IMG/VR virus record: IMGVR_UViG_3300035682_000031
Coordinates: 1,223-65,222 of that record
Direction: 5' to 3' (one strand)
DNA length: 64,000 nucleotides
From: a virus
Taxonomy: Duplodnaviria > Caudoviricetes
This document shows positions 2,411-64,000 of the stretch, piece by piece; the stretch's first letter is position 1; each line of letters starts with the position of its first letter. The notes below the pieces were generated by a model, which was not told where the DNA came from, searched no databases, and saw only the letters and a list, made by a program, of their open reading frames with translations. The translations under genes and the position numbers were made by a program.

Positions 2411-2853
2411 AAGAATGCTCCTTCAATCGCTGTTGTATACGCGACACAGTCTTGCTCGTTTAAAAACACCATACCGGCGCTGAGTCGAATCAGATCTTCG
2501 TCGTCACCGGTCCACCTTGTCTTAATATATTTATGTGTTGATCCTACGTTCGGCCAGAAGTAACAGATGCCGCGCGCCGGCGCTGCGGTTTCGCCGATGG
2601 GTACGTCTACGACGAGCCGTCGAGTTGCCGTTGGACTTTTTCGATATTGGGCAGTCAGTGAGATGCTGGATGAACCCTTGGCTTGTGGGTACCATAATGT
2701 ACCGTGCATGTTCTGTCGTTCCAAGCCGAACAAATCACCGTGTTCACAGTAGTATGCGAGTACTTCTTCGAGCGCCATAACAGGGTTCTCATTTGCCCCT
2801 CTAGCGTTGAAATTACGCCGCTCGAACCATTGTTTAATCCGTTTAATCATCAT
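2407..2853 (-). CDS. modular hypothetical early protein (paralog)
   Basis: Likely start MMIKRIK at 2853; C-terminal AP..G..YFW...W.GD..D...L..G.VF module shared with 1374-2165 and 2843-3481. Confidence 0.65.
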   Translation of the reverse strand: MMIKRIKQWFERRNFNARGANENPVMALEEVLAYYCEHGDLFGLERQNMHGTLWYPQAKGSSSISLTAQYRKSPTATRRLVVDVPIGETAAPARGICYFWPNVGSTHKYIKTRWTGDDEDLIRLSAGMVFLNEQDCVAYTTAIEGAFL

Positions 2854-3481
2854 TCGCCCCCACGATTGCATCAAAGTGTGCCCGTGCTGCGCCTTCGGTT
2901 CGGTGGACAAAGCCACGTTTCAATAGGTTATGATCGATAATGTCATCACCCCATTCGCATCTGGTCACGGCGGGTTCGTGTCCGAGTCTAATTGTCCAAT
3001 AACGAGCTCCCCGAACCAGTACGTCCGCCTGCGGTGCTGGATACTCACGACCATTGATCGCGCGCATTTTTTGTGGTTCGACTCGATAAGCTATCCCCCT
3101 ACTCACCACATGGGATGGAGTACATTCAATCCACTCGTCATACAAATTGCTGAAAAACTGTAGCCCCGTCTTATCACCATGCGTATCAATCCACTGCGCC
3201 ACTTGCATGAACGTCAACTCTTGGCCGGGTTTGAACTCACATTTGTCTTGTGCGTGTCGCACCGCCATAATGTCATAGTCGCTGGGCTGTCCGTCCCATC
3301 GAAAGCCGATCTCTGTGTACCAGAACGCGTAGCGATGACCTATCTTGACCCAAACTGGGTATGTGTTGGTTCCCTTTAATCGTTCTATGGATGATACGAC
3401 ATGTTCCGATCCGTCTCGGAGTATGACCGTATCACCAGCAGCGACGGGTGTATCTACACCGTTTAGATTAAGTGTTGCCAT
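2843..3481 (-). CDS. modular hypothetical early protein (paralog)
   Basis: 212 aa; shares the GQELTFMQ module and the C-terminal module with 1374-2165; GGGAGA SD. Confidence 0.75.
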   Translation of the reverse strand: MATLNLNGVDTPVAAGDTVILRDGSEHVVSSIERLKGTNTYPVWVKIGHRYAFWYTEIGFRWDGQPSDYDIMAVRHAQDKCEFKPGQELTFMQVAQWIDTHGDKTGLQFFSNLYDEWIECTPSHVVSRGIAYRVEPQKMRAINGREYPAPQADVLVRGARYWTIRLGHEPAVTRCEWGDDIIDHNLLKRGFVHRTEGAARAHFDAIVGANDD

Positions 3482-60365: not shown

Positions 60366-61034
60366 TCATTTCTTCTTATCCTCTCGCCACTCCGGGCAAA
60401 AAGTTACGGGACACCAAGGACACAACGCGGATGGCTTCAACTGCCACACATCTTCGGCCTTGGCACGTTCAACACGAGCAATCTTGGCGAGCCAGAACTT
60501 AAACATCGAGTCCAGATCTTTGCGGTGATACACCGTGTCCACCACCTTGTTCGCCTCAACAAACAGCAACATCGCGCGGATTTCTAACAAGTGTGGGAAC
60601 AAAGCAAACGCCATCGTCGCCATCAAGTGACATTGATCAGTGTCGGGATACCGTCCTTTGCCTGTCTTGTAATCCGCATAATATCCCGTCGTGAAGTCAG
60701 GATGCACTACCAACAAATCAGCGATACCGATCATAAGGGCGTTTACTCTATCACCATAATCTACCGCATTACCGTTGCCGTCCAGCGCCATTTCAAGTTC
60801 ACAGAACTTCGTGCCGGGGATGTTGCTCAACTCGACTAGTAGATCACGATGTTTGAATAACTCCGGTGGCAACGGTTCATTCGATTCGATAAAATCCTCA
60901 AACGCTTTATGAACTTTGGTACCCCACTCGGTCGCCACGCTACCGGTAAATCGGACGGATTTCAAGATACGCTTCTCGTGGTACATGCTCGGACATTGGT
61001 CAAAGTCTTTGAGAGCTGAATATGAATACCTCAT
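60366..61034 (-). CDS. PD-(D/E)XK exonuclease (Cas4/RecB-like)
   Basis: SYS.L..F..CP, G..VH, GIAD, DYKTG and C.WCP...C motifs; start MRYSY at 61034. Confidence 0.85.
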   Translation of the reverse strand: MRYSYSALKDFDQCPSMYHEKRILKSVRFTGSVATEWGTKVHKAFEDFIESNEPLPPELFKHRDLLVELSNIPGTKFCELEMALDGNGNAVDYGDRVNALMIGIADLLVVHPDFTTGYYADYKTGKGRYPDTDQCHLMATMAFALFPHLLEIRAMLLFVEANKVVDTVYHRKDLDSMFKFWLAKIARVERAKAEDVWQLKPSALCPWCPVTFCPEWREDKKK

Positions 61035-61111
61035 TTGGATAATCCCGCTAAATAGCATATCGTTGCCATCATTGTTACAACAAAAATAACGTCGCCCCAA
61101 TCCGTGTTCAT
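61031..61111 (-). CDS. 26-aa hydrophobic peptide (not in ORF track)
   Basis: MNTDWGDVIFVVTMMATICYLAGLSK; ATGA overlaps on both sides. Confidence 0.5.
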   Translation of the reverse strand: MNTDWGDVIFVVTMMATICYLAGLSK

Positions 61112-61212
61112 TTCTTCCCCTTTGCAATTGCCTCGGCGTATAACCACGCGCATAAAAGAACCAACCACCAAAGCCCCCAAAAGTGGGCGTCCAAAAAATC
61201 ACCTAGTGTCAC
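61108..61212 (-). CDS. 34-aa hydrophobic peptide (not in ORF track)
   Basis: GTG start overlaps the polymerase TAG; MTLGDFLDAHFWGLWWLVLLCAWLYAEAIAKGKK. Confidence 0.5.
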   Translation of the reverse strand: MTLGDFLDAHFWGLWWLVLLCAWLYAEAIAKGKK

Positions 61213-63146
61213 TAACAATCACCATACCTTTCCGCGAATTTTGCATCGCATTTTAGAGGTAAACCCTGAATCCAATCAGGACACGTTGTCATACAACCGA
61301 CCATAAGGTCTTTGGTTTCTTGACCAAGTTCTGTCGGTACAACCACGGCAAATTCATCGTGTGTATTCAACTTTGGCTCGACACCGAGATCCATCATCCA
61401 AATGCCTTGGTGTTTCATAATATCGAACGCAATCGCTTGGGTGCAGTTATGAACAATCACCGGACCACTGTCGCCTTTGACAACAAATCTAGTTTTTGGT
61501 CCGCAGTTAAGGATGTCGTAGACCCGAAAACGTCCTGTCCGCGTTCCAACCGATAACGAATTGTGCTGTTCGGAACACCCGACAGTTGACTTAACAACAC
61601 CACGTCCAAACCAATGCTGTTTCGTCTGTTCAAACAATTTCGCTTTCTCGTTACCCAATGGCAGTTCTTTGGTGAATACCCCGCGTTGTTGTCGACACGA
61701 TCCAAGTCCGTACCTGGCCGATACGATGGCCCCATGTCCGCCCAAAACGCTTCGAACGAACCCTGCCATGCTTCGCATACTGTAATTCCCCGCCCACCGT
61801 AATTTCCCCACGACTGATGGGGCGGCAGTTGGCAACGATCGCGCATACTCCGCCAAACCCAATAGACCGGATGTTTTGACATGCCGTGTGTCTTTGGTAG
61901 CGACTGTAACATTTTCGTCATGCACCCACAATTGGGCGTCCCGCCACGTTTTGTTTCCTTCGCAACGTCGGCGCCCAACTTCACACACTCGTGGCCACAG
62001 TCGCATAGGTATGTCCATGCCCACTTCAAACCTGTCGTGTGATGCCTCGATACACATGTCAACATTCCGAATTTCTGGCCGGTAAGGTCTCGGCTGTTGT
62101 GATGCACTTTGCCACTTTTGATACTCATTCAATACCTCGTGATCTGGAGTCATAAAAACACCGTCTACTGTAACACAATCCTGTTCTGATTTGGTAAGTA
62201 TTCCACCATGAGTTACAAAACTATCCCCGTCGTGAACCTTATCAGATAAACGTACGTCTTGTATTTTCTTCCACCCGTGGTCCGTCAAAACCAGAGTATC
62301 CTCGGCTATGCAGTTTTCAATGAACTTACCACCGTAGATGTACGTTTTGACTTTAGAACGACCGCGAATCGAATCAAACACAATCGAGCGTTTACCCTCT
62401 TCATCCAACTGCACACGCAGCCCTGGGTAAGTCATCCAAGTGCCACTCGGCAAACGAATTGATGGCACAACTTCCCCAAACAAAACTCGGCTGCCGTCGT
62501 AGTAAATGGCGTCTTCCTTCGGGCCGAGGAAATAACCTTGACCACCAATAGCCATGTGCTCCAAAACTTCTTGTGCTCGTTTCCATGACCGCACGATATG
62601 TGCGTTCTTGCGACGGTACGTCACAATCGCGAGTTCGGACTGCTCATCCATCAGATTCACGCCGTAAGTAGTTTTGGCAAATGTACCGAACTTCTTCTTA
62701 CCCAAGCCGTAGCCTGCACCGAGTACTGTTGCCTTACCTGCCGGACGCTGGATACTGCAATATGGCTCAACGCCTTCCTTGTCCAAACGTCGAATCTCAA
62801 CAGGGTCACCGCCGAAAATCTCAGCGGCCATAATTGAATACGGATCGGCGTCGTTCGCAAACTCTTCGAGCAAGTCCGTCTGATTCGCCAACCACGCTAG
62901 CACGCGAGCCTCAATCTGACCCGAGTCACCCGCTACAGTAACCATACCGTCAGGCGCTTTGATGGCGCGTCTGAGTGCGTTTGTCTGTCCTTCCTTACGC
63001 CCGCTCGGGAGGTTTTGGAGATTTATACCGTCCGAGTTATGGATCAGTTTTCCGTTCGCCACGAACCGATGTCTTGGTCCCGCGTTTCGAATGTCGTACA
63101 CGGGGACGACTGCTATTGGTTTTAGCTCGTTGTTTAATCTCGTCAT
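61212..63146 (-). CDS. family A DNA polymerase, C-terminal half (split-intein C-fragment, polymerase domain and one internal intein)
   Basis: NLQNLP, motif A DSGQIEAR, motif B R..GK...LG..YG, motif C THDE; own AAGGA SD. Confidence 0.92.
   Translation of the reverse strand: MTRLNNELKPIAVVPVYDIRNAGPRHRFVANGKLIHNSDGINLQNLPSGRKEGQTNALRRAIKAPDGMVTVAGDSGQIEARVLAWLANQTDLLEEFANDADPYSIMAAEIFGGDPVEIRRLDKEGVEPYCSIQRPAGKATVLGAGYGLGKKKFGTFAKTTYGVNLMDEQSELAIVTYRRKNAHIVRSWKRAQEVLEHMAIGGQGYFLGPKEDAIYYDGSRVLFGEVVPSIRLPSGTWMTYPGLRVQLDEEGKRSIVFDSIRGRSKVKTYIYGGKFIENCIAEDTLVLTDHGWKKIQDVRLSDKVHDGDSFVTHGGILTKSEQDCVTVDGVFMTPDHEVLNEYQKWQSASQQPRPYRPEIRNVDMCIEASHDRFEVGMDIPMRLWPRVCEVGRRRCEGNKTWRDAQLWVHDENVTVATKDTRHVKTSGLLGLAEYARSLPTAAPSVVGKLRWAGNYSMRSMAGFVRSVLGGHGAIVSARYGLGSCRQQRGVFTKELPLGNEKAKLFEQTKQHWFGRGVVKSTVGCSEQHNSLSVGTRTGRFRVYDILNCGPKTRFVVKGDSGPVIVHNCTQAIAFDIMKHQGIWMMDLGVEPKLNTHDEFAVVVPTELGQETKDLMVGCMTTCPDWIQGLPLKCDAKFAERYGDC
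61446..62312 (-). mobile_element. contiguous intein (289 aa) in DNA polymerase
   Basis: EN|CIAEDTLVLT (block A), MTPDH (block B), VYDI (block F), IVHN|C (block G); removal restores ENCTQA. Confidence 0.92.
61457..62128 (-). CDS. HNH-type homing endonuclease nested out of frame in the intein
   Basis: DLTGQKFG.LT, CDCG, THG.S, W.SM..RC, YGGRGI.VC and LDRVDNN.GY...NC.W; GAGGT SD 5 nt before the ATG. Confidence 0.9.
   Translation of the reverse strand: MSIKSGKVHHNSRDLTGQKFGMLTCVSRHHTTGLKWAWTYLCDCGHECVKLGADVAKETKRGGTPNCGCMTKMLQSLPKTHGMSKHPVYWVWRSMRDRCQLPPHQSWGNYGGRGITVCEAWQGSFEAFWADMGPSYRPGTDLDRVDNNAGYSPKNCHWVTRKRNCLNRRNSIGLDVVLLSQLSGVPNSTIRYRLERGQDVFGSTTSLTADQKLDLLSKATVVR
63036..63146 (-). mobile_element. 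split intein C-fragment (37 aa)
   Basis: M...VYDIRNAGPRHRFVANGKLIHN|S; in-frame TAA two codons upstream of its ATG. Confidence 0.88.
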
Positions 63147-63834
63147 CTGTTAGTCCTTGTTTTATAAACGTACGTATAGATTCGTAACAGAAATTGATAC
63201 CTTGTTTCTGTAATATCAAAATCCGTTGCCCTATCGGACCCGTTGACCACGCGCGCCGGTTGGTGTTCTGCTCACTGCGCGTCGCCCATCTAAGGTTGCC
63301 GGGTTCGTAGTGACCATCGTTGTCAATACGATCCAATGAGTGTTTGCTTGTTGTCGGATTCCCAAGATGGGATATAATCCAATAAGCCGCATCTGACGCG
63401 GAGGCAAACTTAAATCGGATGCCTCGACGACCATAGTTAGGGTACGCAGCGCTGTTTGGGTTATCGCATCTGTCTTTTGCCTGTTGCATTCGCCGTCTAA
63501 GTTTGGTAAACGATTCAGAAACCGACACGGCGGCTCGTGCACTATCACACATCTTTTGATGGTGGCTTATCCATGCGGATGAATCAACAACCCCCGCCAT
63601 CTTGCGACGCATGGCGCAGGACTTACATTCTCGATTCGCATTGCCAATATCGCCTTTCAAGTCTGACCATCGTGACATCCCTACAGTTCCGCACGCACAA
63701 ACCCACCCAAACCTATATACACTGCCGGTTTTTTGCTCTGAGTCGTCCAGCGTTATATTCCCAATTCGGCGGTGCTGCCGCCTCCATAATTGGCGTTCCT
63801 GCGCGAGATGCTTCAAGAAGTCCGATCGCGTCAT
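63037..63834 (-). CDS. HNH-type homing endonuclease overlapping both split-intein halves
   Basis: CACG, RC.NP....Y.NYG.RGI and SLDRIDNDGHYEPGNLRWAT; likely start MTRSD at 63834 after GGGGAAGGAG (ORF open to 63912). Confidence 0.88.
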   Translation of the reverse strand: MTRSDFLKHLAQERQLWRRQHRRIGNITLDDSEQKTGSVYRFGWVCACGTVGMSRWSDLKGDIGNANRECKSCAMRRKMAGVVDSSAWISHHQKMCDSARAAVSVSESFTKLRRRMQQAKDRCDNPNSAAYPNYGRRGIRFKFASASDAAYWIISHLGNPTTSKHSLDRIDNDGHYEPGNLRWATRSEQNTNRRAWSTGPIGQRILILQKQGINFCYESIRTFIKQGLTDDEIKQRAKTNSSRPRVRHSKRGTKTSVRGERKTDP

Positions 63835-64000
63835 CCGCTCCTTCCCCCGTGAAAACCTTGTGTTCGGCGGTTGCAGTAATCCCGTCCCATTCATAAACTT
63901 CTTGGTATCCACTAAACACTACTCCTTCGTGCTCAACAAACTCAACTCCGTCCCAAATTAAATCAGACAGGAGAACGTCCACGATCGACTTCTCAACTAC
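63713..64000 (-). mobile_element. split intein N-fragment (end of the polymerase N-half; continues beyond the window)
   Basis: Frame open from the window edge; IVDVLLSDLIWDGVEFVEHEG...ITATAEH aligns with IQDVRLSDKVHDGDSFVTHGG...FMTPDH of the second intein; stop at 63713. Confidence 0.8.

What the first reader, a model, noticed from the sequence alone, without database searches (positions are those of the whole stretch)
61446..64000. Two stages of intein splitting side by side in one gene
Seen: the two inteins are homologous by eye (D..L.D...DG..FV.H.G; VYDI.N.GP..RF). Both HNH genes belong to the same family (CxCG, YG.RGI, LDR.DN) and both start in the +1 frame just after the block-B His, using an SD made from intein codons. 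One intein keeps its frame open and the other has lost it and gained a restart. Inference: an out-of-frame endonuclease lets the intein frame break without harming homing, giving a direct route from contiguous to split inteins. The two inteins must also avoid cross-reacting.
Basis: inference. Interest (0 to 1): 0.82.

Follow-up and report, generated by a model that had tools for sequence, protein, structure and literature searches.

The report
Two related inteins, one split
A lake-water phage DNA polymerase gene carries two related inteins, one whole and one split in two, each with a homing-endonuclease gene written in a shifted reading frame; both layouts are already known kinds.

Summary
On the minus strand lies a family-A DNA polymerase gene with two homologous class-1 inteins. 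Each has an HNH-like gene in the +1 frame that starts 13-28 nt after the block-B His codon.

- **Intein 2 (62312-61446):** one open frame of 289 aa. Its middle roughly 180 aa is only the shifted reading of the HNH gene and is predicted unstructured.
- **Intein 1:** split into an N half (stop at 63713) and a C half (ATG 63146), with the HNH gene between and overlapping both.

Neither state is a recent event in this phage. At site b, 91 of 100 distinct relatives keep both frames open and none is truly split. At site a, all 55 distinct HNH-bearing relatives are split and none is contiguous.

Hint and HNH trees group elements by insertion site. Free-standing HNH genes branch between the two HNH clades. 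The contiguous-to-split route is therefore plausible but not shown.

Both layouts are in print: fractured genes (2009) and out-of-frame endonucleases in inteins (2025-26). Phage APSE-1 has the site-b layout annotated. I rate it a new member of known kinds, of moderate interest.

The parts
63716..64000 (-). Intein 1, N half (IntN1): the last 95 of 111 residues, fused to the polymerase N-extein. It holds the block-B Thr-x-x-His (His codon 63862-63860). The TAG stop is at 63715-63713. The first 17 residues and the 334-aa N-extein lie at the other end of the record.
   Evidence: Hint-N HMM hit 63991-63827, E 3.2e-24; phrog_26005 E 7.1e-12
63037..63834 (-). HNH1: HNH-like homing-endonuclease gene, 265 aa from ATG 63834, in the +1 frame relative to IntN1. 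AAGGAG lies at 63843-63838. The stop TAA (63039-63037) is formed by the intein's terminal His-Asn codons. The gene overlaps IntN1 by about 120 nt and all of IntC1.
   Evidence: phrog_3377 8.5e-26; phrog_374 4.9e-22; HNH HMM hit 63813-63109, E 5.8e-57
63036..63146 (-). Intein 1, C half (IntC1): 37 aa from ATG 63146 (AAGGA at 63158-63154) to the terminal His-Asn. It lies in the +2 frame relative to IntN1. Ser+1 of the extein follows.
   Evidence: Hint-C HMM hit 63110-63036, E 9.4e-14; 50% identity over 26 aa to the intein 2 C end
62313..63035 (-). Middle extein of the family-A DNA polymerase, 241 aa.
   Evidence: Pfam DNA_pol_A E 3.5e-16; phrog_17 E 4e-38
61446..62312 (-). Intein 2: contiguous, 289 aa, Cys1 to His-Asn. 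Residues 1-80 and 261-289 form the Hint fold. Residues about 81-260 are the shifted reading of HNH2.
   Evidence: AF2 pLDDT 96-98 at both ends and 38-65 in the middle; Foldseek matches to gp41-1, RecA and Npu DnaE inteins, probability 1.00
61457..62128 (-). HNH2: HNH-like homing-endonuclease gene, 223 aa, in the +1 frame inside intein 2. A TGA in that frame stands directly before the ATG. GAGGT lies at 62138-62134. The stop TGA is at 61459-61457, inside the block-G codons.
   Evidence: (phrog_374 2.6e-51); AF2 mean pLDDT 88.6; 143 BFVD matches at E<=0.001
61212..61445 (-). C-extein of the polymerase: Cys+1 at 61445-61443, 77 aa, and the stop codon.
   Evidence: phrog_7766 E 8.1e-22

Best explanation
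The gene is a phage family-A DNA polymerase interrupted at two conserved motifs by two related class-1 inteins. Both belong to one family of composite elements: a mini Hint domain plus an I-HmuI-like 'HNH' gene written in a shifted frame over the intein.

Site b (..Glu-Asn|Cys...His-Asn|Cys-Thr-Gln). The ribosome reads straight through. The precursor carries a 289-aa intein whose two ends fold into the Hint domain and splice in cis. The middle, about 180 aa, is an unstructured by-product of the HNH gene's sequence. It is kept free of stops by the choice of synonymous codons in the HNH frame. HNH2 is made separately by internal initiation, at an ATG preceded by a stop in its own frame and by an SD built from the block-B His-Glu-Val codons.

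Site a (..Gly-Gly|Cys...His-Asn|Ser). The intein frame is broken. The N-extein with IntN1 is one protein. IntC1 with the rest of the polymerase, intein 2 included, is a second protein that starts from an SD and ATG lying inside the 3' part of HNH1. The two halves must associate and splice in trans to give a whole polymerase, as in a 'fractured gene'. In both elements the HNH product presumably cuts intein-less alleles and drives homing.

Shown: the anatomy, the homology, selection on the frames, and the spread of each state among relatives. Inferred: splicing, internal initiation and nuclease activity.

Origin. Both states are old and site-specific. I put about 55% on the split form descending from a contiguous out-of-frame form. 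Breaking an open frame is easy, whereas reopening a frame that holds about 18 stops is not. I put about 40% on a separate HNH invasion that fractured a site-a mini-intein directly.
For: Anatomy and homology.

Genome context: the record is a circularly permuted phage genome, and the N-extein and the start of IntN1 lie at its other end.

Hint fold: the intein 2 model has pLDDT 96-98 for residues 1-80 and 261-289 and 38-65 between. Its best PDB matches are inteins: 6qaz gp41-1, 2in0 RecA, 4kl5 Npu DnaE, all at probability 1.00.

Both frames open in relatives:
- 78 of 80 loci found through intein 2 have 0 stops in the intein frame and a +1 open stretch of 187-256 aa.
- All 80 +1 stretches hit HNH2, and none of the 80 +2 stretches does.
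- In a sample chosen by the C end and extein alone, 70 of 78 assessable loci are long and open.
- 111 of 111 distinct contiguous HNH-bearing elements, over all sites, have 0 stops in the intein frame against a mean of 13-19 in the third frame.

Only the HNH frame is selected as protein. Differences per site at HNH codon positions 1/2/3 in the middle of the overlap:
- site b: 0.094/0.085/0.287, from 23 pairs;
- site a: 0.087/0.064/0.338, from 14 pairs.

Split state at site a: 46+9 distinct split elements, all with the HNH in +1, and with 4-39 stops in the N frame, as many as shuffles give. Cys1 is kept in 87 of 87 mapped site-a elements and His-Asn in 86 of 87.

Shared junction: the commonest HNH ATG lies 1 nt into the His codon at site a (20 of 51) and 16 nt after it at site b (33 of 83; 12 of 83 at 1 nt).

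Independent carriage: site a is empty in 29 and occupied in 5 of the 35 assessable polymerase genes that carry the site-b intein.

Independent assemblies agree.

Phage APSE-1 has the same site-b layout: an intein of 306 aa with 0 stops, and a +1 ORF of 222 aa with HNH HMM E 2.6e-88. Its RefSeq record annotates the two as 'DNA polymerase' and nested 'HNH endonuclease'.
Against: - No experiment and no RNA or protein data exist for this phage. Splicing, trans-splicing, internal initiation and cleavage are all inferred.
- Pfam and NCBIfam recognise neither the Hint parts nor the HNH ORFs.
- The HNH family has an invariant Arg (R144 of HNH2) where I-HmuI has its catalytic His. Nuclease chemistry is therefore uncertain. 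Foldseek against the PDB gave nothing for the HNH2 model.
- The spacing between AAGGAG and the HNH1 ATG is only 3 nt.

For the origin question:
- Mini-inteins sit at the base of the site-a Hint clade, though on long branches.
- Free-standing HNH genes branch between the site-a and site-b HNH clades. Both points fit a separate invasion as well.
- The trees are FastTree on 117-228 columns, and many forks are unresolved.
Confidence: 0.8

Rival explanations
1. Direct fracture. The site-a split intein never passed through a contiguous out-of-frame stage. A free-standing HNH gene invaded a site-a mini-intein and broke it at once, bringing its own stop and start signals (step II of the 2009 gene-breaking model).
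For: - Contiguous HNH-free mini-inteins exist at site a: 8 distinct and 11. Some sit at the base of the site-a Hint clade.
- HNH genes without Hint flanks branch between the site-a and site-b HNH clades.
- No contiguous HNH-bearing site-a element of this lineage was found among 68 distinct viral elements or 62 distinct metagenome elements.
- HNH1 and HNH2 are only 35% identical, and only over the core.
Against: - Site-a and site-b elements share the +1 frame, an HNH start at or just after the block-B His codon, and an HNH end inside the block F/G codons. That is unexpected for unrelated insertions.
- All other sites of the family (b, c, e and a second gene) hold contiguous out-of-frame forms.
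- The basal minis are on long branches.
Confidence: 0.4
2. Literal reading of the finding: the split intein in this gene is a recent derivative of a contiguous copy, for instance of its neighbour, so that the gene shows a transition in progress.
For: Both states occur in one gene and their parts are homologous.
Against: - The two elements are distant: 40-50% identity in the Hint parts and 35% in the HNH core.
- Each groups with elements at its own site from many other phages.
- The same split layout (frames 0/+1/+2) is shared by 46 distinct relatives.
- The intein-1 N frame holds 18 stops across HNH1, as many as shuffles give.
Confidence: 0.03
3. Artefact: the frame break at site a, or the double open frame at site b, comes from assembly or sequencing errors.
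For: The record is a metagenome assembly. One relative (L061) does show a break caused by an N in its sequence.
Against: - Contigs of two other runs from other studies match with 0 other letters and 0 gaps where they cover.
- An 83%-identical ORF on another contig (P0002) starts at the same C-half Met.
- The layouts recur in 46 and 91 distinct relatives.
Confidence: 0.02
4. The HNH is not made separately. It is joined to the intein by programmed frameshifting, giving an in-frame intein-endonuclease as in canonical inteins.
For: The overlap is on the same strand, and in-frame HNH inteins are known (named in the 2025 preprint, passages seen).
Against: - In this window a TGA in the HNH frame stands directly before the HNH2 ATG, so a shift upstream cannot enter the ORF.
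- An ATG with GAGGT 8 nt upstream recurs in 27 of 83 site-b relatives.
- The HNH ORF ends inside block G, so a second shift back would be needed to finish the polymerase.
Confidence: 0.04

Closest known systems
Fractured genes: split inteins with a free-standing endonuclease gene between the halves (Dassa et al. 2009, PMC2677866; abstract and passages seen)
   Same: Intein 1 has that layout. The enzyme gene is broken at an intein. The three parts (N-extein with IntN, endonuclease gene, IntC with C-extein) lie on one strand. The 3' end of the endonuclease gene overlaps the C-half ORF, and the setting is phage replication genes.
   Different: - Their endonucleases are GIY-YIG or Vsr-like; here it is an I-HmuI-like HNH relative.
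- They describe 27-51 non-coding bases between the IntN stop and the endonuclease gene. Here the HNH start lies about 120 nt inside the IntN coding sequence, in the +1 frame.
- Their overlap with the C half is 6-69 bp. Here the HNH1 ORF runs 110 nt over IntC1.
Inteins with a homing endonuclease in a separate reading frame (Gosselin, Arsenault & Gogarten, bioRxiv 10.1101/2025.01.02.630785, passages and section 15 read; Phillips et al., bioRxiv 10.64898/2026.09.14.751524, abstract only)
   Same: Intein 2 has a contiguous intein ORF, an endonuclease ORF on the same strand in another frame, and an in-frame reading without recognisable structure. The proposed origin is the same: a free-standing endonuclease gene invading an intein.
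   Different: - Theirs is an endonuclease VII-like gene in 'frame 3' in actinobacteriophages, or the cyanobacterial dnaX intein, and they call it rare.
- Here it is an I-HmuI-like gene in +1 (and +2 at site c), in family-A polymerases of environmental phages.
- It is frequent: 146 cluster representatives at E<=1e-30.
- A split homologue sits in the same gene.
Hamiltonella phage APSE-1, DNA polymerase P45 with nested P46 (NC_000935.1)
   Same: It has the same composite element at practically the same polymerase site (..Gly-Gly-Lys-Ser|Cys...His-Asn|Cys-Glu-Asn). The intein is 306 aa with no stop, and the +1 ORF of 222 aa hits my HNH model at E 2.6e-88. RefSeq annotates a 'DNA polymerase' and a nested 'HNH endonuclease'.
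   Different: - Only 30.5% identity to intein 2.
- The insertion point is three residues upstream.
- No site-a intein was seen in the fetched stretch.
- P46 is annotated from an internal start (141 codons).
- The 1999 paper is not held, so I could not see how it describes the overlap.
ShiLan element: out-of-frame HNH hidden in a phage methylase gene (Arsenault et al. 2025, PMC11855218; abstract seen)
   Same: An HNH gene is written in a shifted frame inside a host gene whose own frame stays open across it.
   Different: ShiLan has no splicing domain, and the insert is thought to stay in the protein as a loop. Here Hint halves flank the insert and should remove it.
I-HmuI, HNH homing endonuclease (PDB 1u3e)
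   Same: It is the only solved structure hit by the profile of the HNH2 family: E 0.004 over the beta-beta-alpha core, with the Asn positions aligned.
   Different: The catalytic His of I-HmuI aligns with an invariant Arg in this family. I-HmuI is intron-encoded.

Membership tests
Class-1 intein (Hint domain) | Cys/Ser at position 1; block-B Thr-x-x-His; terminal His-Asn; Cys/Ser/Thr at +1 | tested here: met
   - Intein 2: Cys1, Thr-Pro-Asp-His, Val-His-Asn|Cys.
- Intein 1: Cys1 at the record's other end, Thr-Ala-Glu-His, Ile-His-Asn|Ser.
- Cys1 is kept in 87/87 mapped site-a elements and His-Asn in 86/87.
Class-1 intein (Hint domain) | Hint fold | tested here: met
   Tested for intein 2 only. 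AF2 gives pLDDT 96-98 for residues 1-80 and 261-289. Foldseek finds PDB inteins at probability 1.00, rmsd 2.5-3.4 over 75-102 columns, though E is only 7e-3 to 4e-2. Intein 1 was not folded.
Class-1 intein (Hint domain) | In-frame insertion in a conserved motif, with intein-less alleles that are continuous across the site | tested here: met
   Homologues without a site-a intein read straight across the site (P0003, P0008, P0014). 29 of 35 assessable loci are empty at site a. L085, L088 and L117 lack a site-b intein.
Class-1 intein (Hint domain) | Protein splicing activity | not testable with these tools
   Needs expression of the precursor.
Split intein / fractured gene (Dassa et al. 2009) | Host gene in two ORFs: IntN ends with a stop, and IntC has its own start | tested here: met
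   TAG at 63715-63713; ATG at 63146 with AAGGA 7 nt upstream; 18 stops in the N frame between them.
Split intein / fractured gene (Dassa et al. 2009) | Endonuclease gene between the halves on the same strand | tested here: met
   HNH1 at 63834-63037.
Split intein / fractured gene (Dassa et al. 2009) | Trans-splicing of the two products | not testable with these tools
   No complex prediction was run.
Intein with out-of-frame homing endonuclease (2025-26 preprints) | Uninterrupted intein ORF with an endonuclease ORF in another frame between the splicing blocks | tested here: met
   Intein 2 has 0 stops, and HNH2 lies in +1.
Intein with out-of-frame homing endonuclease (2025-26 preprints) | The in-frame reading of the insert has no recognisable fold, while the shifted reading folds as a nuclease | tested here: met
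   Insert pLDDT is 38-65. The HNH2 model has mean pLDDT 88.6 and 143 BFVD matches at E<=0.001; the named ones are mostly HNH or homing endonucleases and AP2-domain proteins.
HNH / His-Me finger endonuclease (I-HmuI-like) | Sequence or profile similarity to known members | tested here: met
   PHROG HNH families at E 2.6e-51 and 8.5e-26. I-HmuI 1u3e at E 0.004. But there is no Pfam or NCBIfam hit and no Foldseek PDB hit.
HNH / His-Me finger endonuclease (I-HmuI-like) | Catalytic His at the end of the first core strand | tested here: not met
   An invariant Arg (R144 in HNH2; Asp-Arg in both HNH1 and HNH2) aligns with the Asp-His of I-HmuI. That this His is I-HmuI's general base is recalled, not taken from a call.
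HNH / His-Me finger endonuclease (I-HmuI-like) | Conserved Asn residues of the motif | tested here: met
   N155 and N167 are invariant in 48 sequences and align with Asn residues of I-HmuI.
HNH / His-Me finger endonuclease (I-HmuI-like) | DNA cleavage at the intein-less allele | not testable with these tools
   Needs an assay.

The most novel reading that the evidence does not exclude
This family of Hint-plus-overprinted-HNH elements may be a natural series for a one-way ratchet.

The proposed steps:
1. A free-standing endonuclease gene is captured out of frame in a mini-intein.
2. The intein frame is then held open only by synonymous codon choice.
3. A single stop or indel plus a start turns it into a split intein that keeps a working homing gene and can never revert.

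Which outcome becomes fixed is set by the insertion site: always split at site a, never at site b.

The nuclease itself would be a variant His-Me finger enzyme that works with Arg in place of the catalytic His.
Probability: 0.3. Interest if true: 0.7.

Novelty: new member of a known kind. Interest (0 to 1): 0.5.

Why it matters
**What the data offer.** How split inteins arise, and how endonuclease genes came to live inside inteins, are old questions with few natural intermediates. Here one essential gene holds a cis-splicing intein with an overprinted endonuclease gene and a split homologue of it. The relatives give well over a hundred distinct copies of each state, plus minis, further insertion sites and free-standing endonuclease genes. 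That is enough material for a properly rooted test of the order of events.

**Possible uses.**
- A set of related and perhaps mutually orthogonal split and contiguous inteins for protein engineering.
- A clean example of how synonymous codon choice keeps a second frame open over about 200 codons.

**Annotation.** Pfam and NCBIfam see neither part, so such polymerase genes will be annotated as oversized or broken.

**Limits.** Both layouts are already described, and the same site-b element has been in GenBank in phage APSE-1 for a long time. The value lies in scale and in the pairing, not in a new principle.

Tried and rejected
- **Close relatives.** A DNA search of GenBank phages found only three short matches. 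A single-protein scan of viral contigs found none. Alignments were needed instead.
- **Regex sorting of the 120 protein hits** was too crude and was replaced by HMM mapping.
- **L061**, the only 'split' site-b locus, is an artefact. It contains an N, and the HNH frame itself shifts there.
- **Split site-c forms.** They are suggested by proteins that begin with a C half (P0041, P0042, P0083, P0084, P0088, P0119). A scan found only three loci, and the one clear site-c element (L243) is contiguous. No DNA of a split site-c form was seen.
- **Site-b state in loci found through site a.** My first count (27 'occupied') was unreliable because of cross-hits. By HMM mapping, 7 of 80 carry both a and b and 61 only a. 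'Empty' could not be scored.
- **P0190.** This 1451-aa protein has a contiguous long intein at site a, but from a different Hint lineage, and I have no DNA for it. It is a lead only.
- **Tree polarity.** The frame-0/+1/0 split class is not cleanly basal in the HNH tree, so I draw nothing from it.
- **HNH2 model against the PDB.** Foldseek gave no match at E<=0.001.
- **RNA evidence.** No RNA holder was listed among the 8 runs. This says nothing about expression.
- **Not run.** I did not run complex prediction. The N half spans the record's ends, and halves of a split intein tend to pass by likeness to solved structures.
- **Not readable.** The 1999 APSE-1 paper is not held. Supplementary files of the preprints were not opened. 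Their supplemental tables and figures may hold polymerase cases that bear on novelty.

Full report
**What is there**

The window is bases 1223-65222 of a 65,222-base virus record rated complete. Near-identical sequence is held by lake-water metagenome runs.

On the minus strand at the window's end lies a family-A DNA polymerase gene (Pfam DNA_pol_A E 3.5e-16; phrog_17 E 4e-38). Its first 351 codons sit at the other end of the record. That ORF (L002 2..1054, minus) ends with Gly-Gly followed by a Cys and 16 more residues, and it runs off base 1. The two record ends share the four letters CTAC. Joining them with one copy restores the frame into the window's first codons. The record is therefore a circularly permuted genome cut inside the first intein.

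**Intein 1 (site a, before the ..N-L-Q-N-L-P motif)**

- The N half is 111 aa, with Thr-Ala-Glu-His as block B. It stops at TAG 63715-63713.
- An ORF in the +1 frame (63912-63037) encodes an HNH-like protein. Its likely start is ATG 63834, 28 nt after the His codon, with AAGGAG 3 nt upstream. My HNH model matches from 63813 onward.
- A third ORF, in the +2 frame, starts at ATG 63146 with AAGGA 7 nt upstream. It gives a 37-aa C half ending Ile-His-Asn, then Ser and the rest of the polymerase.
- The HNH1 ORF ends at a TAA made by the His-Asn codons.

**Intein 2 (site b, ..Ile-Glu-Asn|Cys ... Val-His-Asn|Cys-Thr-Gln)**

- It spans 62312-61446, 289 aa, with no stop.
- HNH2 (62128-61457, 223 aa) lies in +1. 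A TGA in that frame stands directly before its ATG. GAGGT, made from the His-Glu-Val codons, lies 5 nt upstream.

**Homology**

- The Hint N parts are 40% identical over 47 aa (E 7e-9).
- The C parts are 50% identical over 26 aa (E 5e-7).
- The HNH cores are 35% identical over 92 aa (E 2e-12).
- Both HNH ORFs hit PHROG HNH families. Pfam and NCBIfam see nothing in the HNH ORFs or the Hint parts.
- No further copy of either part is in the window.

**Is the double reading real?**

Within HNH2 the intein frame has 0 stops, while the third frame has 10. 200 synonymous shuffles gave a mean of 8.6 and never fewer than 3. In HNH1 the N-half frame has 18 stops, and shuffles give 19.0.

An AlphaFold2 model of intein 2, built on 51 aligned sequences, has pLDDT 96-98 for residues 1-80 and 261-289 and 38-65 between them. 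Its best PDB matches are inteins (gp41-1, RecA, Npu DnaE; probability 1.00).

The +1 product folds with mean pLDDT 88.6. It matches 143 predicted phage proteins at E<=0.001. The named ones are mostly HNH or homing endonucleases and AP2-domain proteins.

In the middle of the overlap, close pairs differ at HNH codon positions 1/2/3 by 0.094/0.085/0.287 (23 pairs). This is the pattern of a protein selected in the HNH frame only. It is the same as in the split elements, at 0.087/0.064/0.338 (14 pairs).

Contigs from two other studies agree base for base where they cover.

**Relatives**

The search with the 644-aa ORF found 3,427 proteins at E<=0.001 among 8,000 scored.

- *Site b, found through intein 2.* I fetched 80 viral loci, the best of 154. 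78 have an open intein frame and a +1 open stretch of 187-256 aa. All 80 +1 stretches hit HNH2 and none of the +2 stretches does.
- *Site b, found through the C end and C-extein.* That first ranking could favour contiguous forms, so I repeated the search this way, keeping the best 80 of 136. 70 of 78 assessable loci are long and open. Seven are minis or remnants. One (L061) is broken, and it proved to be an artefact of an N.
- *Site a, found through the C half and extein.* This gave the best 80 of 232.

After removing identical copies:

| Site | Distinct elements | States |
|---|---|---|
| a | 68 | 46 split with frames 0/+1/+2 (as in the window); 9 split with frames 0/+1/0; 8 contiguous minis without HNH; 5 degenerate |
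| b | 100 (after dropping 3 mis-mapped loci) | 91 long and open; 8 minis; L061 |

A metagenome scan, which partly covers the same contigs, gave at site a 49 split, 11 minis, 2 degenerate and 0 contiguous with HNH. In 15 loci the N half was not in the locus, and 3 were duplicates.

At the level of 50%-identity cluster representatives, intein 2 has 146 matches at E<=1e-30 and 865 at E<=1e-10. Most of the top 150 match over residues 1-289 in one stretch.

**A family with many sites**

HMM mapping shows related elements at other places:
- in polymerase motif B (site c, HNH in +2);
- in motif A (site e);
- a few residues to either side of site b;
- in a second, unidentified gene.

All 111 distinct contiguous HNH-bearing elements have 0 stops in the intein frame. 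Long proteins with two contiguous long inteins (sites c and b) exist. Proteins that begin with a site-c C half suggest that splits occur there too, but I could not get their DNA.

**Trees**

In the Hint tree the 68 site-a elements form one side of a branch with support 97. Minis are scattered within both the site-a and site-b groups. With all sites added, c, e and the second gene fall on the site-b side.

In the HNH tree the site-a genes form a clade (support 94) and the site-b genes another. Genes without Hint flanks (L029, L032, L065, L070, L081, L227) branch on the path between them.

These are FastTree trees on short alignments, and the root is unknown.

**Reading**

The two states are not a transition caught in this phage. 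Each is old, widespread and tied to its site. The two elements are carried independently: site a is empty in 29 and occupied in 5 of 35 assessable genes that have the site-b intein.

- the common design (+1 frame, HNH start at or just after the block-B His codon, HNH end within blocks F/G);
- the fact that every other site holds the contiguous form;
- asymmetry: one stop or indel plus a start breaks an open frame, whereas about 18 stops would have to vanish to reopen it.

What speaks against it:
- the intermediate was not found;
- minis lie near the base of the site-a clade;
- free-standing relatives could have invaded twice.

I give the stepwise route about 55% and direct fracture about 40%.

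**Known or new**

- Split inteins with an endonuclease gene between the halves were described in 2009 (PMC2677866).
- Inteins with an endonuclease in a separate frame were reported in a 2025 preprint on actinobacteriophages and in a 2026 preprint on cyanobacterial dnaX.
- An out-of-frame HNH in a methylase gene was published in 2025.
- The 2025 preprint also states that a stop in a decaying endonuclease region can give a split intein.
- Phage APSE-1 carries the very same site-b element. RefSeq annotates the nested ORF as an HNH endonuclease.
- My searches found no paper describing this polymerase family, the pairing of both states in one gene, or the site-bound outcome. Supplements were closed and the 1999 APSE-1 paper is not held.

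**An odd point**

The profile of the HNH2 family aligns to I-HmuI (1u3e, E 0.004) with an invariant Arg where I-HmuI has the His of its Asp-His pair. HNH1 has the same Asp-Arg. Whether these proteins cut DNA, and how, is open.

**Verdict**

This is a new member of known kinds and of moderate interest. Its main value is as rich comparative material for how endonuclease genes enter inteins and how inteins split.

Noticed in passing
window 61457-62128 and 63037-63834 (minus); alignment A5: The HNH-like family has an invariant Arg (Asp-Arg) where the profile alignment to I-HmuI (1u3e) places the Asp-His of the catalytic core. The two Asn positions are kept.
   Followed up: partly
window 64000 / record G000 base 1 (L002 1-1054): The virus record is cut inside the N half of intein 1. 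Both ends carry CTAC, and joining them with one copy restores the reading frame. The genome is therefore circularly permuted, and the polymerase N-extein lies at the other end.
   Followed up: partly
L087 3843-4685, L111, L116, L135 1957-2799, L154, L182 854-1687, L068 2777-3637, L075, L243: Related inteins sit in polymerase motif B (..Gly-Lys-Thr..|Cys...His-Asn|Cys-Gly-Tyr-Gly). In most the HNH gene is in the +2 frame (in +1 in L243), and again the intein frame is fully open.
   Followed up: partly
L038 7292-8200, L051, L064-L066, L071 4001-4927, L077-L079, L073 7085-8002: The same kind of element (contiguous, HNH in +1) occurs in at least one other gene (extein context ..Leu-Leu-Gln-Ile-Ser|Cys...|Cys-Gly-Ala..), which I did not identify.
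   Followed up: no
P0190 residues 246-540: A 1451-aa polymerase carries three inteins in one ORF. One is a contiguous intein of about 295 aa at site a with an Arg/Gly/Gln-rich middle, from a different Hint lineage. It may hold another out-of-frame gene, but no DNA was seen.
   Followed up: partly
L245 (NC_000935.1) 2501-3418: In phage APSE-1 the nested HNH ORF P46 is annotated from an internal start (141 codons). The open +1 stretch is 222 codons and matches the HNH model from its position 9.
   Followed up: partly
L109 (site a), L086, L123, L142, L143: Some site-a elements are split or frame-shifted without an HNH gene. In L109 only 15 nt separate the two halves. L142 and L143 keep an HNH remnant. 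These look like later decay stages.
   Followed up: no
window 60366-61202 (minus): The ORF just downstream of the polymerase (278 aa) ends with a Cys-x-x-Cys...Cys cluster. By eye it looks like a Cas4/RecB-type nuclease. This was not tested.
   Followed up: no
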